This document shows positions 37,237-40,052 of a stretch of DNA of 64,000 nt, in pieces. Every line of letters starts with the position of its first letter. The first letter of the stretch is position 1. A model generated the notes under the pieces. It did not search any database and was not told where the DNA came from. It saw nothing but the letters and a program-made list of their open reading frames with translations. Location: the IMG/VR virus record IMGVR_UViG_2880395615_000010; one strand, written 5' to 3'. Origin of the DNA: a virus. Taxonomy: Duplodnaviria > Heunggongvirae > Uroviricota > Caudoviricetes. The position numbers and the translations under genes were made by a program.

Positions 37237-37659
37237 TCACAACAGCACCTTCTGAAAATTACCCTGATAGAAAGCCAGTACACGCTGCATAGCTTCGCTC
37301 TTCCGGCACTCGCTACAGATTATGTTTTGACGCCTGTCGTAGCGGCGTATTTCTCCGTCTGGTAATGACCAGATAAGGTCAGGATCAACCACAGATGGTT
37401 TCTTCAGATTTGCCCTTGAGAGTTTTTTGCGGGCGTTTTGCCAGTCCTTACGCGCCTGTTCAGACGGGAACAACCCGTAACCAGAGTTGTATACATCGCC
37501 GCTGGCAACCAGCTCTCTTGCGAGAACGCTCATCAGATATCTTGTCGCACCTGTCTTGACTTCCAGTTGCCGTAACGTCTCACGCCCACTCTGGCGTACG
37601 AGTTCAACAACCTGCCCTTTAATTTTTTCTCGCTCTTCTTGTGTAAAAACTTTTGCCAC
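37237..37659 (-). CDS. Hypothetical protein, 140 aa
   Basis: ORF immediately downstream of the replication initiator; CxxC at C-terminus. Confidence 0.45.
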   Translation of the reverse strand: MAKVFTQEEREKIKGQVVELVRQSGRETLRQLEVKTGATRYLMSVLARELVASGDVYNSGYGLFPSEQARKDWQNARKKLSRANLKKPSVVDPDLIWSLPDGEIRRYDRRQNIICSECRKSEAMQRVLAFYQGNFQKVLL

Positions 37660-37699: not shown

Positions 37700-38776
37700 T
37701 TACCCCCTGAAGCCCAGTGGAATTTCGGTATCTGGTTCAGAAATGTGATTCACGCAACGCTGGTTGTTCGTACCGCTTACCGGGAGCAACCAGGGGTTCT
37801 CAAAATTCCGGTCCGGTCCTAAAAACGTCGTCGCTCGCTGAACAAATTCCGTTCCCGTTTTCCCGGTAGCCGCCAAGTATCTTGCGTAACGCCTCACGCC
37901 ATCCAGCATGGCCTCTGGTGGCACCCCCTCGCGTAATCTGGCCTTCCAGGCACTGAAAGCGGATTTCTTCGGGTTTGCTCCGGCACGCAACGGGTACTCC
38001 CGCCAGACCTGTTCGAACACATCCGGATAATCCACTCGTCCCACAGACTGCCCGGTGTTTTCCGGGACTACCCGATCGGCTTCCCGCAGAATGGCGGAAT
38101 CGGCTTCAGGCTGCTGCAGTTGGTGTGATTGCTCCGGCCTTGCGGTCATCACCTGCTGCACAGCGCCCGAATCGGCTTTCAGCGCATACGCTGAATCGGC
38201 TTCCGGTGTCGTGCCTGCTGGCTGACCAAGATTGACGGTCTGAACATCCCCTGCCTGGTTCGTGGCGTTTTTTACGCCATGGACCATAGTGTTTTGATCT
38301 TCTTGATCTGTATCTTTATCTGTATCTTTATCTGTCGTTACTCGTCGTGACATGTGCGTGACATTTCGTGACGCGCCGTGACAATCGCCATTTTGTTCCC
38401 GCTTTCTTTCCCTCTCTCGCTGCGCCCTCTTGCGCTCTGCAGGAGATTTTGCGGTTTGCGAAATATTGCCGTTGTCCTCTTTAAGCACCTGGCGTTTTTC
38501 CCATCCAGTGATTAAATCACCATCAAGTACCCGCCCCTGCATCGTCTGCAAAATTGAATCAATTACCTCTTCTGTCACGTCGAGCGCACTTGCCAAATCT
38601 TCTGTCGTGACATCAATGTGACCTCGCGTGACATTTCGTGACGCGCTCACCAGGAGGTGGATATACACTGCCATCACTGTTGCAATTGGCTGCCCTGACA
38701 CCCTGGCAATTGTTCGCCACTTAGGGTCATTTGGCATGTCATGCCATAATCTGAGCCAAGCGTTAGCCATACTCAC
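37700..38776 (-). CDS. Replication initiator/organiser protein (lambda O-like role), 358 aa
   Basis: Position after the cro-like/YdaT-like genes; internal iteron clusters; conserved C-terminal region (VFEQVWREYPLRAGANPKKSAF...). Confidence 0.65.
   Translation of the reverse strand: MSMANAWLRLWHDMPNDPKWRTIARVSGQPIATVMAVYIHLLVSASRNVTRGHIDVTTEDLASALDVTEEVIDSILQTMQGRVLDGDLITGWEKRQVLKEDNGNISQTAKSPAERKRAQRERERKREQNGDCHGASRNVTHMSRRVTTDKDTDKDTDQEDQNTMVHGVKNATNQAGDVQTVNLGQPAGTTPEADSAYALKADSGAVQQVMTARPEQSHQLQQPEADSAILREADRVVPENTGQSVGRVDYPDVFEQVWREYPLRAGANPKKSAFSAWKARLREGVPPEAMLDGVRRYARYLAATGKTGTEFVQRATTFLGPDRNFENPWLLPVSGTNNQRCVNHISEPDTEIPLGFRG
38346..38382. repeat. Iteron cluster 1: four CGTGAC repeats at 10-11 bp spacing
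   Basis: cgtgac at 38346, 38357, 38367, 38377. Confidence 0.55.
38609..38645. repeat. Iteron cluster 2: four (C)GTGAC repeats at 10-11 bp spacing
   Basis: gtgac at 38609, 38620, 38630, 38640; 21-mer gcgtgacatttcgtgacgcgc identical to cluster 1. Confidence 0.55.
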
Positions 38777-38841
38777 CTCTTCTGATACCGAATCTTTTTA
38801 CTCACGAGTTGCCGGAAGCGATTCGATATGGCTATTGTCAG

Positions 38842-39267
38842 TCAATGTACTGCCACAGCATTTCCTGCCGGGCCACCACGGTTCATCTGATTGAAACCGG
38901 CGATTGCCACTGCGACAAAATCATCAGCGTCTCTCACCAATCGCTCCCGCGTCTCCACCAGCTCCCGAAAATAAGCTGAACTGTGGCTGCGCATTCTGGC
39001 CACCAGCAAAGGTGGCATTGCCTTTTCGATCGCTGGTAACAACGCCTGAATTTTTTCAACTGCATCAGGGGTGTCTTTCTCTACCCAGCGGAAAATTTTC
39101 TGGGTATTGCGAGCCAGGGCTTCCGGATGGCTGTCGTCATACAGTTCAGGAAACGTCATACCCAACTCAAAATAAGCCTGGGTTATTCCAGCTGCTGGAA
39201 CTTTTTCGCCATCAGGACGCGCCCAGGCATTCATCGCCATGCGGATGTGTTCATGCTTGATTTTCAT
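38842..39267 (-). CDS. ydaT: YdaT-like protein, 141 aa
   Basis: N-terminus MKIKHEHI matches my recollection of K-12 YdaT; overlaps the upstream HTH gene. Confidence 0.6.
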   Translation of the reverse strand: MKIKHEHIRMAMNAWARPDGEKVPAAGITQAYFELGMTFPELYDDSHPEALARNTQKIFRWVEKDTPDAVEKIQALLPAIEKAMPPLLVARMRSHSSAYFRELVETRERLVRDADDFVAVAIAGFNQMNRGGPAGNAVAVH

Positions 39268-39532
39268 GAATCAAGCTCCTAGTAAGTGGTTGTGTTAACG
39301 TTTTGGTATCTTCCAGCTCGGGCCAAATATTCATCCAATCAAAAGGCCTTAGTTGCTGACGTGTAACTTCACCATTACTGGCTCGCTCAATAAGGACACA
39401 TAACGATGCCCCTAAGATTTGACCTTTACTCAATGCCTTTCTTAGATAACCGATGCTAGTACCACACTCACATGCAAACATACGCTGTTCATCTGACGAA
39501 AGAGAATTGAGAAATATTCTTAATTCTTCCAT
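39251..39532 (-). CDS. Cro/YdaS-like HTH regulator, 93 aa
   Basis: HTH segment CGTSIGYLRKALS; divergent from the repressor-like gene. Confidence 0.6.
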   Translation of the reverse strand: MEELRIFLNSLSSDEQRMFACECGTSIGYLRKALSKGQILGASLCVLIERASNGEVTRQQLRPFDWMNIWPELEDTKTLTQPLTRSLIHENQA

Positions 39533-39632: not shown

Positions 39633-40052
39633 ATGGACAAATATGAATTTAGACGACAACAACTCATCAAAATTCGTGATGAGAAATGCGATGGTAAAGC
39701 GGTTAACGTGGCCAGAAAGATCGGTCGCGAGCCTTCTTATGTATCAAGAATGTTGTACCCAGAGGGGAAAAAAGGAAAAAAACGGATCGCTGATGATATG
39801 GTGGAGATTATAGAAGAGTCCTTTGGGTTACCCCGGGGATGGATGGATGGTATCGTTTCATCATCAACGAACACAGCCTCCAATTATGAAACAAGGGTTC
39901 TAACGCCACGACAACGTATTTTTTTAGATCTCTTAGACGAACTGCCAGAAAGTGAAGCGGATAACTTATTAAAAACTCTTGAAGAGAAAAAACAGTATTA
40001 CAATATGATCTACGAAGAAATCCGTAAAAAGAAAGCACAAAACGCATCATAA
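39633..40052 (+). CDS. Prophage repressor-like HTH protein without a peptidase domain, 139 aa
   Basis: HTH KAVNVARKIGREPSYVSRML; no Ser/Lys dyad region. Confidence 0.55.
   Translation: MDKYEFRRQQLIKIRDEKCDGKAVNVARKIGREPSYVSRMLYPEGKKGKKRIADDMVEIIEESFGLPRGWMDGIVSSSTNTASNYETRVLTPRQRIFLDLLDELPESEADNLLKTLEEKKQYYNMIYEEIRKKKAQNAS

What the first reader, a model, noticed from the sequence alone, without database searches (positions are those of the whole stretch)
38346..38645. Two matching iteron clusters inside the replication initiator gene
Within the 358-aa initiator ORF there are two clusters, 263 bp apart, each of four (C)GTGAC repeats at 10-11 bp spacing (one helical turn), sharing an identical 21-mer gcgtgacatttcgtgacgcgc. 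An origin embedded in the initiator gene is the lambda arrangement, but two spaced clusters are less usual. A short tandem coding repeat (tctgtatcttta, encoding DKDTDKDTD) lies between them at 38301-38340.
Basis: partly seen in the sequence, partly recalled or inferred. Interest (0 to 1): 0.45.

Follow-up and report, generated by a model that had tools for sequence, protein, structure and literature searches.

The report
Two-part replication origin inside initiator gene
A prophage replication-initiator gene carries, written into its own codons, two matching arrays of a 6-base site plus an A+T-rich tract. This layout is conserved across many bacteria and is most likely the phage's replication origin: a known kind of arrangement in an unstudied but very common family.

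Summary
Gene 37700-38776 (- strand) holds two arrays of four (C)GTGAC units, each spaced 11-10-10 bp, sharing an identical 21-mer. Six of the seven GTGAC-N4-7-GTGAC pairs in the 64-kb window lie here (0.4 expected).

The motif is a DNA signal, not a peptide repeat. It sits in all three reading frames. In 21 diverged homologues (host GC 0.34-0.69) the codons that spell it are fixed, for example GTC 21/21 and GGT 21/21, while other conserved residues use 3-6 codons.

Across 55 representative relatives, 50 keep the two-array layout. They fall into three word classes (GTCACG, CGAACGC, GTAACG), and both arrays always change together.

Array B is followed in nearly all by an (A)GATA(A/C)A tract, GC about 0.34, which is also under codon-level selection. 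It flanks array B; it does not lie between the arrays.

The protein has a DnaD-like winged-helix N-domain. In relatives the next gene is often a lambda-P-like or DnaC-like loader or a DnaB helicase.

Best reading: a lambda- or SPP1-style origin embedded in the initiator gene. Array B plus the A+T tract would form the unwinding core, and array A, inside the DNA-binding-domain codons, would be an auxiliary site. Binding and origin activity are inferred, not shown.

The parts
37700..38776 (-). Replication initiator / replisome-organizer gene. It is 358 aa from the GTG at 38776; the probable true start is the ATG at 38770, giving 356 aa.
   Evidence: ORF list. phrog_3729 'replication initiation protein' E 8.7e-256; phrog_1701 and phrog_9327 (helicase-loader / primosomal) on the C-terminal half. 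No Pfam family. Homologues are named 'phage replisome organizer'.
38492..38770 (-). Codons for the N-terminal winged-helix domain (aa 3-95), the presumed origin-binding domain.
38606..38642 (-). Array A: four direct GTCAC(G) units in gene orientation, spaced 10-10-11. It encodes aa 45-58 (SASRNVTRGHIDVT), the end of helix 3 and the following loop of the winged-helix domain.
   Evidence: The units fall in reading frames 2, 0, 1 and 0. Codons are fixed across 21 diverged loci: TCA 20/21; GTC, ACG, GGT and GTC each 21/21. The spacer base (R51 third position) is free.
38574..38579 (+). Single inverted iteron unit, 33 bp from the last unit of array A. It encodes D66-V67-T68.
   Evidence: V67 is GTG in 18/18 loci that have DVT. 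Locus L094 keeps GTGAC through different amino acids (C-D).
38336..38382 (-). Array B: four perfect GTCACG units plus one degenerate unit (GTAACG, 38336-38341), spaced 10-10-11-10. It encodes aa 132-147 at the start of the disordered linker.
   Evidence: (repeat D8). The units fall in frames 1, 2, 0 and 2. AlphaFold2 pLDDT is below 55 from aa 131 onward.
38291..38335 (-). A+T-rich (A)GATA(A/C)A tandem tract, purine-rich on the coding strand; candidate DNA-unwinding element. It encodes DKDTDKDTDQEDQN, holds GATC sites at 38296 and 38305, and has a 13-mer-like GATCTGTATCTTT at 38305.
   Evidence: It is the lowest-GC 40-mer of the gene (0.25, at 38292-38331). In 48 relatives the 45 nt after the last array-B unit average GC 0.34, against 0.54 for the N-domain codons. 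Codon choice there is GAT:GAC 157:6 and AAA:AAG 118:25, against 154:159 and 65:93 elsewhere. GATC sites and the 13-mer-like match.
38390..38443 (-). Codons for the basic helix (aa 112-129, AERKRAQRERERKREQ) between the two arrays. It is a candidate specificity determinant of the protein.
   Evidence: Helix 112-129 at pLDDT about 75. This segment holds the class-specific residues that are not themselves iteron-encoded: a 9-aa indel plus K116/R117/Q119 against A/K/W.
37700..38026 (-). Codons for the C-terminal helical domain and tail (aa 251-358), the presumed helicase / primosome-recruitment module. It is exchanged independently of the N-terminal module.
   Evidence: pLDDT 81-95 over aa 251-330. 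Phage hits H8-H11 share only window 37700-38178. The tail gives a weak DnaT C-terminus match (E 0.0077, below the cutoff). PF17948 (DnaT) is found in 16 of 69 homologues.

Best explanation
The region is the vegetative replication origin of a lambdoid (Qin/Rac-like) prophage, written into the coding sequence of its own initiator.

Shown:
- Two arrays of a 6-bp site (GTCACG), one per helical turn and all in one orientation, lie 260 bp apart. One inverted copy follows array A.
- An (A)GATA(A/C)A A+T-rich tract abuts array B.
- All three elements are kept by selection on the DNA itself across many Proteobacterial prophages.
- The two arrays always carry the same word, even where that word differs between subfamilies.

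Inferred mechanism:
- The initiator's N-terminal DnaD-like winged-helix module, perhaps with the adjacent basic helix, binds the units side by side on one face of the helix and oligomerises, like the lambda O-some or SPP1 gp38 at oriL.
- Array B with the adjacent tract is the core where the duplex opens.
- Array A, 190-340 bp upstream in relatives, is a second loading platform. It either joins the same nucleoprotein complex by looping out the intervening DNA, or tunes initiation and initiator expression.
- The C-terminal module then recruits the helicase. In relatives this would go through a neighbouring P-like, DnaC-like or DnaB gene. In this phage, which has no such gene, it presumably uses host primosome proteins.
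- Early rightward-type transcription runs through the origin, as in lambda.
For: - Clustering is far beyond chance.
- The motif occupies all three reading frames.
- Synonymous-codon resampling: 6-11 GTCAC in the first 170 codons against a null mean of 0.5-2.9. None of 2000 resamples reached the observed count in 22 of 23 loci, from hosts of GC 0.34-0.69, and the rest of each gene holds 0-1 copies.
- Iteron codons are fixed (major-codon fraction 0.91) while other conserved 4- to 6-fold residues are saturated (0.44). The spacer base varies freely.
- The inverted unit is retained in one locus through different amino acids.
- 50 of 55 representative loci have the same hexamer in both arrays at 10-11 bp spacing, in three classes: GTCACG, CGAACGC and GTAACG(C). 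Copy number ranges from 2+2 to 6+9. Insertions in the protein add further units.
- The A+T tract adjoins array B and is under codon-level selection.
- Initiator identity: (downstream IstB/DnaC-like in 3 loci, DnaB in 2, lambda P in 2).
- Upstream regulator genes vary (YdaT 5, CII 3, YdaS 2, Cro and others among 32 loci) while the sites stay, so the only constant partner is the initiator N-module itself.
- The N-module with its sites and the C-module recombine independently, as expected for an origin-specificity unit.
- Precedents: lambda and Stx phage O (PMC7466680, PMC3349717), SPP1 gp38 at oriL inside gene 38 (PMC6316719), and TP901-1 ORF13 and Tuc2009 Rep2009 binding repeats within their own genes (PMC8965321).
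Against: - There is no binding or replication data for this family. The literature searches found no study of it.
- The core site is only 6 bp, which is short for a specific initiator site.
- The recognition helix of the predicted helix-turn-helix is acidic, and outside the iteron-encoded loop the folded domain has no residue that tracks the iteron class. How specificity is read is therefore unclear.
- Array A has no A+T-rich neighbour, so its role is open.
- No DnaA box or IHF consensus (up to 1 mismatch) lies in 38200-38800.
- Helical phasing between the arrays cannot be established, because the signal near a 10-bp period is confounded by gain and loss of end units.
- Five of the 55 representatives lack a shared repeated word.
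- The related sequences share ancestry, so the counts are not fully independent. Saturation at neighbouring synonymous sites argues that this does not explain the result.
Confidence: 0.72

Rival explanations
1. Both arrays are initiator-binding sites, but only array B with the A+T tract is the origin. Array A would be a separate control element inside the gene: an autoregulatory roadblock to transcription of the initiator's own gene, or a titration or handcuffing site that limits initiation, as iterons outside the minimal origin do in plasmids.
For: Array A lacks an adjacent A+T-rich stretch (GC 0.475-0.625 in windows overlapping the array), whereas array B always has one. The distance between the arrays varies from 189 to 340 bp, which a strict architectural complex might not tolerate. 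The module occurs up to six times per E. coli genome, so cross-talk control is plausible.
Against: Array A is conserved as strictly as array B, with fixed position (nt 129-160 from the ATG) and fixed 10-10-11 spacing in all GTCACG-class loci. It also co-varies with array B. This fits an integral part of the origin equally well. In Stx phages, weakly bound distal iterons are still essential for replication (PMC7466680).
Confidence: 0.3
2. The repeats are binding sites for another regulator, such as the CII/YdaT-like activator or the repressor. They would drive or control an internal, possibly antisense, promoter, in the way lambda CII uses TTGC-N6-TTGC repeats at promoters that lie inside genes.
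For: Short direct repeats one helical turn apart are the lambda CII site format (own knowledge). One promoter-like match, GTGACA-16-GACAAT, lies on the antisense strand at 38358-38385 inside array B. A YdaT/CII-like gene lies immediately upstream in the window.
Against: Promoter-like matches in the region are at the chance level (3 found, 2.1 expected). Upstream genes differ widely among loci that keep the same GTCACG arrays: only 5 of 32 are YdaT and 3 are CII. The word classes follow the initiator N-module, and the arrays sit at fixed codon positions of that module in hosts ranging from Enterobacterales to Burkholderiales and Pseudomonadales. An adjoining conserved A+T tract is not a feature of CII-type promoters.
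Confidence: 0.06
3. The pattern comes from the protein or the RNA: a duplicated peptide motif (ASRNVT...VTT) needed by the protein, or an mRNA element (GUCACG repeats) used for translational control.
For: The peptide ASRNVT occurs twice. S46, V49, T50, R51, G52, S136 and T147 are invariant, and V56 and T57 nearly so, in 69 homologues.
Against: The DNA word lies in all three frames and is encoded by different residue pairs: S-R, V-T, G-H and C-H. Synonymous codons are fixed far beyond background. In other subfamilies the loop peptide is entirely different (NATERGRTQ, ETTGNAGVTQG) yet again spells a repeated DNA word shared with array B. The inverted unit is conserved as double-stranded symmetry and would not be the same RNA word. 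No Rfam family matches the gene.
Confidence: 0.03

Closest known systems
Phage lambda and Stx-phage origin (ori-lambda inside gene O)
   Same: The origin lies inside the initiator gene. An array of four or more initiator sites is followed, in the direction of transcription, by an A+T-rich tract that encodes part of the inter-domain linker. Extra iterons appear as extra amino acids. The N-terminal module with its sites is a specificity unit, and the C-terminal module contacts the helicase-loading system (PMC7466680, PMC3349717).
   Different: Lambda iterons are 18-19-bp inverted repeats in one contiguous array. Here the conserved core is a 6-bp direct repeat, one per helical turn, in two arrays 260 bp apart, and one array lies inside the codons of the folded DNA-binding domain. 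The protein matches no Pfam family, so it has no lambda-O-type match. Its fold is DnaD-NTD-like. This phage has no P-like loader gene.
Replisome organizers of Gram-positive phages: SPP1 gp38 (oriL/oriR), TP901-1 ORF13, Tuc2009 Rep2009, r1t ORF11
   Same: The initiator has a DnaD-like / replisome-organizer N-terminal domain and binds direct repeats inside its own gene, next to an A+T-rich unwinding element. SPP1 gp38 binds two separate repeat regions (PMC6316719, PMC8965321). NCBI names this family 'phage replisome organizer'. PHROG replisome-organizer families match weakly (E 4.5e-6 and 2.2e-4).
   Different: Sequence similarity is marginal: TIGR01714 scores 15.4 bits against a cutoff of 49.8. 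The two SPP1 sites are about 13 kb apart and each has its own A+T region. Here both arrays lie within 300 bp of one gene and only one has the A+T tract. The hosts are Proteobacteria.
Satellite phage P4 ori / crr (own knowledge, not tested here)
   Same: A bipartite cis requirement: two separated clusters of a short repeated site (an octamer), both bound by the same initiator.
   Different: P4 alpha protein is a primase-helicase unrelated to this protein. ori and crr are about 4.5 kb apart and are not embedded in the domain-coding part of the initiator gene.
Iteron plasmids (RepA / pi-type winged-helix initiators)
   Different: Plasmid iterons are about 17-22 bp and usually intergenic, with DnaA boxes nearby. 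Here the core is 6 bp, lies within a gene, and has no DnaA box within 38200-38800.

Membership tests
Lambda-type origin embedded in the initiator gene | Array of repeated sites inside the initiator's own coding sequence | tested here: met
   The ORF is identified as an initiator.
Lambda-type origin embedded in the initiator gene | A+T-rich tract directly following the iterons in the direction of transcription, within the linker-coding region | tested here: met
   The lowest-GC 40-mer (0.25) lies at 38292-38331, abutting array B. It is conserved and under codon-level selection in 48 relatives. The linker is disordered in the model.
Lambda-type origin embedded in the initiator gene | Iterons are about 18-19-bp inverted repeats in a single contiguous array | tested here: not met
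   Only a 6-bp core (GTCACG) is conserved and the flanks vary. The repeats are direct and form two arrays 260 bp apart.
Lambda-type origin embedded in the initiator gene | Initiator is a sequence homologue of lambda O | tested here: not met
   No Pfam family matches the protein or the N-domains of 69 homologues at E <= 0.01. Some phage records label the protein 'DNA replication protein O', but that is annotation only.
Lambda-type origin embedded in the initiator gene | Initiator binds the repeats, and the fragment supports initiator-dependent replication | not testable with these tools
   Requires EMSA or footprinting and an origin-cloning assay.
Phage replisome organizer (TIGR01714 / DnaD-like N-domain; SPP1 gp38, TP901-1 ORF13, Tuc2009 Rep2009) | N-terminal domain belongs to the replisome-organizer / DnaD-NTD winged-helix family | tested here: inconclusive
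Phage replisome organizer (TIGR01714 / DnaD-like N-domain; SPP1 gp38, TP901-1 ORF13, Tuc2009 Rep2009) | Direct repeats serving as the origin lie within the organizer's own gene | tested here: met
   Met at the sequence level. Origin function is not tested.
Phage replisome organizer (TIGR01714 / DnaD-like N-domain; SPP1 gp38, TP901-1 ORF13, Tuc2009 Rep2009) | Gene is followed by a helicase-loader and/or replicative-helicase gene | tested here: inconclusive
   In the window the next gene is DUF977 / Ren-like, with no loader. Among 26 relatives the next gene is IstB/DnaC-like in 3, DnaB in 2 and lambda P in 2. O-only modules are known in 34 of 314 lambdoid phages (PMC12315714).
Iteron-plasmid origin | 17-22-bp iterons with host DnaA box(es) next to the A+T-rich region | tested here: not met
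   The core is 6 bp. No TTATNCACA match with up to 1 mismatch lies in 38200-38800.

The most novel reading that the evidence does not exclude
The iteron word and its reader could be partly the same nucleotides. Array A is written into the codons of a surface loop (aa 46-57) of the initiator's own winged-helix domain. Within the folded domain, the only residues that differ consistently between the GTCACG and CGAACGC classes are those encoded by the iterons themselves. That would be a self-referential way for origin specificity to switch, and it would explain why a second array is kept inside the domain-coding region.

The evidence does not exclude this. It also does not favour it over the simpler view that the loop is a permissive place to store DNA sites and that specificity sits in the basic helix at aa 104-125.
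Probability: 0.1. Interest if true: 0.8.

Novelty: new variant of a known kind. Interest (0 to 1): 0.45.

Why it matters
This module, at 80% identity or more, is present in 1972 of 5426 complete E. coli genomes, with up to six copies per genome. Relatives occur across Proteobacteria. Lambdoid phages that carry only an O-type gene and no helicase or loader are explicitly described as unstudied, with replication "not yet understood" (PMC12315714).

The comparative analysis gives a base-resolved, testable map of the origin: which bases are constrained, which are free, where unwinding should start, and three natural specificity classes. It also allows a clean experimental design, because synonymous recoding can separate the DNA signal from the protein. 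The map could help predict incompatibility or cross-activation between co-resident prophages, including those of O157-type strains.

It is also a clear example of how strongly a cis-element can dictate invariant residues and codons in a protein. That matters when conserved residues are read as evidence of protein function.

Tried and rejected
- The first IMG/VR scan with the window's N-domain returned only 99%-identical loci and was useless for divergence tests. It was replaced by a scan of one genome per species and by scans seeded with divergent members.
- DnaA boxes and IHF sites: none with up to 1 mismatch.
- Helical phasing between the arrays: there is a signal near a 10-bp period (Rayleigh R 0.5), but it is confounded by gain and loss of terminal units and by shared ancestry, so it is not claimed.
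- A conserved palindrome after the A+T tract: hairpin scores are only slightly above shuffles (5.96 against 4.9), so it is not claimed.
- The GAATCGGCTT / EADS repeats at 38075-38206 were considered as further iterons. They were rejected because all four copies are in one reading frame and lie in a segment unique to this variant.
- Six literature searches found no description of this family's origin. The r1t replisome-organizer paper (PMC136552) is not held in the library.
- Rfam found nothing in the gene.
Full report
**1. What is in the sequence**

The finding lies in a 358-aa ORF on the minus strand (37700-38776). The ORF sits in a lambdoid early-right-type operon:
- a CI/DicA-like repressor gene (39633-40052, +);
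- a Cro/YdaS-like gene (39251-39532, -);
- a CII/YdaT-like gene (38842-39267, -);
- this ORF;
- a DUF977 / Ren-like gene (37237-37659, -).

Read on the + strand, CGTGAC occurs at 38346, 38357, 38367 and 38377 (array B). It occurs again at 38606, 38627 and 38637, with TGTGAC at 38617 (array A). Both arrays have the same 11-10-10 spacing. An inverted copy lies at 38574-38579. A one-mismatch fifth unit of array B (CGTTAC, 38336-38341) is a perfect unit in a Shigella homologue. The shared 21-mer is confirmed at 38356-38376 and 38626-38646.

Six of the seven GTGAC-N4-7-GTGAC pairs in the whole 64-kb window fall in these two arrays, against 0.4 expected.

The arrays are 260 bp apart start to start (the 21-mers 270 bp, the gap 223 bp), not 263. 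The DKDTD-coding tandem repeat lies beside array B on the far side from array A, not between the arrays.

**2. The repeat is a DNA signal, not a peptide repeat**

In gene orientation the word is GTCAC(G). Its eight copies fall in all three reading frames and are spelled by different residue pairs: S-R, V-T, G-H and C-H.

I collected 37 usable homologous loci from one genome per species, from Enterobacterales, Pseudomonadales, Burkholderiales, Neisseriales and others, at 42-98% protein identity. Three tests followed.

- Codon resampling. For the 23 loci that use GTCAC, I resampled synonymous codons while keeping each protein sequence. The first 170 codons hold 6-11 GTCAC, against a null mean of 0.5-2.9. 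None of 2000 resamples reached the observed count in 22 of 23 loci. The rest of each gene holds 0-1 copies.
- Site by site, in 21 alignable loci. S46 is TCA in 20/21, against a background of 16% of Ser codons. V49 is GTC in 21/21 (background 22%). T50 is ACG in 21/21. G52 is GGT in 21/21 (background 17%). V56 is GTC in 21/21. V67 is GTG in 18/18. The third base of R51, which lies in a spacer between units, is free. Other conserved 4- to 6-fold-degenerate residues of the same domain use 3-6 codons, with a mean major-codon fraction of 0.44 against 0.91 at iteron codons.
- One locus (L094) keeps the inverted GTGAC through Cys-Asp instead of Val-Thr.

Several "invariant residues" of this protein family are therefore invariant because the DNA word is.

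**3. The two-array layout is the family rule, and the arrays co-vary**

In the GTCACG class, array A sits at nt 129/139/149/160 from the ATG and the inverted unit at nt 193. Array B has 3-5 or more units about 190-340 bp further on.

Other subfamilies carry a different word, but again the same word in both arrays, at 10-11-bp spacing, in all frames, and absent from the rest of the gene. The words are CGAACGC (peptide NATERGRTQ...) and GTAACG(C) (for example ETTGNAGVTQG in both places).

After adding IMG/VR loci seeded with divergent members and dereplicating to 55 representatives, 50 show the shared-word, two-array pattern:
- GTCACG: 25;
- CGAACGC: 18;
- GTAACG(C): 7.

Copy number ranges from 2+2 to 6+9. 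Insertions in the protein, such as TCHGVSL in E. albertii and E. coli O157-type variants, are insertions of further units.

Five representatives lack a clear shared word. Two of them carry an inserted domain and a different repeat.

**4. The A+T-rich tract**

The lowest-GC 40-mer of the gene (0.25; 38292-38331) starts 5 bp downstream, in gene orientation, of the degenerate last unit of array B. The same holds in relatives, including genes of 60-68% GC.

The 45 nt after the last unit average GC 0.34, against 0.54 for the N-domain codons. They consist of tandem (A)GATA(A/C)A hexamers that encode DKDKDK or DTDTDT. Codon choice there is GAT:GAC 157:6 and AAA:AAG 118:25, against 154:159 and 65:93 elsewhere in the same genes. 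The tract is thus under DNA-level selection. It is also independent of iteron class.

In the window the tract contains GATC sites at 38296 and 38305 and a 13-mer-like GATCTGTATCTTT with 2 mismatches. No DnaA box or IHF consensus lies nearby.

**5. The protein**

- PHROGs identifies it as a replication initiation protein (phrog_3729, E 8.7e-256). The N- and C-terminal halves match separate families: N-terminal replication initiation / replisome organizer, and C-terminal DnaD-like loader / primosomal protein.
- Pfam has no model for it.
- TIGR01714 (phage replisome organizer N-terminal region) scores below its cutoff.
- AlphaFold2, run with 69 sequences, gives a confident winged-helix domain (aa 4-95), a basic helix (aa 112-129), a disordered linker (aa 130-250) and a helical C-terminal domain.

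Array A encodes the end of helix 3 and the loop at 48-57 of the folded domain. The inverted unit encodes the residues just before the second helix of the helix-turn-helix. Array B and the A+T tract encode the start of the disordered linker, as in lambda O.

In relatives the next gene is often a loader or a helicase: IstB/DnaC-like in 3, DnaB in 2 and lambda P in 2 of 26. The upstream regulators are heterogeneous. The only element that always travels with the sites is therefore the initiator's N-module.

Phage hits H8-H11 share only the C-terminal part (37700-38178). Other E. coli variants share only the N-module, up to the DKDTDK tract. This is the mosaic pattern expected for an origin-specificity unit joined to an exchangeable helicase-recruitment unit.

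**6. Mechanism: what is shown and what is inferred**

Shown: the anatomy, its conservation, DNA-level selection on both arrays, on the inverted unit and on the tract, co-variation of the two arrays, and the initiator-type fold and gene context.

Inferred: the initiator N-module binds the units on one face of the helix and oligomerises. Array B plus the tract is where the duplex opens. Array A is an auxiliary platform, acting through looping into one complex or through a control function. The C-terminal module brings in the helicase.

How specificity is read is open. Between the GTCACG and CGAACGC classes, the only consistently different residues are those encoded by the arrays themselves and a segment around the basic helix, with a 9-aa indel and K116/R117/Q119 against A/K/W. 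The basic helix is therefore the best candidate reader that is not itself iteron-encoded.

Phasing between the arrays could not be settled.

**7. Rivals**

- A peptide or RNA explanation is essentially excluded by the frame and codon data and by the conserved inverted unit. Rfam finds nothing in the gene.
- Sites for a CII/YdaT-type activator or an internal promoter are unlikely. Neighbouring regulators vary, and promoter-like matches are at the chance level. One antisense match does lie inside array B.
- The serious open alternative concerns only array A: part of the origin proper, or an autoregulatory / copy-control site.

**8. Comparison with what is known**

The arrangement works like ori-lambda inside gene O (PMC7466680, PMC3349717) and like the replisome organizers of SPP1, TP901-1 and Tuc2009, which bind repeats inside their own genes (PMC6316719, PMC8965321).

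It is not a member of the lambda O family: there is no sequence match, the iterons are not 18-19-bp inverted repeats, and there is no single array. It reaches the replisome-organizer family only at the fold level.

I found no paper that describes this family's origin, and the annotated phage record has no origin feature. A 2025 survey notes that lambdoid phages with only an O-type gene and no loader are unstudied (PMC12315714). The window's phage is of that type.

**9. Verdict**

Novelty: a new variant of a known kind. It is an initiator-embedded iteron origin, but bipartite, with a 6-bp core once per helical turn, one array inside the DNA-binding-domain codons, three co-varying word classes and a conserved GATA(A/C)A tract.

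Interest is moderate (0.45). It is not surprising in principle. It is, however, very widespread (36% of complete E. coli genomes), sharply defined and directly testable.

Noticed in passing
window 38075-38206: Four copies of (G)AATCGGCTT (+ strand), arranged as two 36-nt repeats 96 bp apart and encoding EADS / KADS / EADS / EADR. All four are in the same reading frame and lie in a linker segment unique to this 358-aa variant. They look like a peptide-level or recent duplication rather than further iterons.
   Followed up: partly
window 38256-38286: An imperfect 13-pair inverted repeat (TGGTTCGTGGCGT-TTTTT-ACGCCATGGACCA) lies just beyond the A+T tract, inside the gene. Relatives often have a short G+C-rich palindrome (CCCCC...GGGGG) 45-70 nt after the last iteron. 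Enrichment over shuffles is small (5.96 against 4.9).
   Followed up: partly
window 37237-37659 (-) and the whole replication module: No helicase or helicase-loader gene follows the initiator. The next gene is DUF977 / LygF / Ren-like. Lambdoid phages with only an O-type gene are reported as experimentally unstudied (PMC12315714). The C-terminal tail (...EPDTEIPLGFRG) weakly resembles the DnaT C-terminus and recurs in relatives with otherwise different C-domains.
   Followed up: partly
window 38280-38660 compared with E. coli genomes: The origin segment is present, at 80% identity or more, in 1972 of 5426 complete E. coli genomes, with up to 6 places in one genome. Co-resident prophages with the same iteron word raise the question of cross-activation or incompatibility.
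   Followed up: no
window 38358-38385 (+): A promoter-like match, GTGACA-16-GACAAT, lies on the antisense strand and is built from units of array B. Promoter-like matches in the region as a whole are at the chance level.
   Followed up: no
window 41196-41247 (+) and 41245-41454 (+): A DicF sRNA (Rfam 76.7 bits, above the gathering score) is followed by a sub-threshold STnc100-like match. Together with the DicA-like repressor and an 838-aa RecE-like ORF (41855-44371), this marks the element as a Qin/Rac-type lambdoid prophage.
   Followed up: no
window 40097-40133: A perfect-looking palindrome, matched on both strands by an unrelated Rfam hairpin model, lies in the gap after the repressor gene. 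It may be a bidirectional terminator.
   Followed up: no
L115:2504-3694 and L117:2501-3805: Two initiator homologues (Serratia, Pantoea) lack the two-array pattern. Right after the winged-helix domain they carry an inserted domain of about 100 aa (YVYYVATTDG..VGIS.NPWAR), with TACTACGTA / GTAGTA repeats at the place of array B.
   Followed up: partly
L107, L109, L114 (Ventosimonas / Entomomonas MAGs): Low-GC relatives keep the GATAAA tract, up to eight tandem copies. They have at most one or two GAACG-like units and no clear array A. These may be degenerate origins or origins with differently read sites.
   Followed up: partly
window 38390-38443 and relatives: Between iteron classes, the basic helix after the winged-helix domain differs by a 9-aa indel and three conserved residues (K116/R117/Q119 against A/K/W). 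The rest of the folded domain has no class-specific residue outside the iteron-encoded loop.
   Followed up: partly
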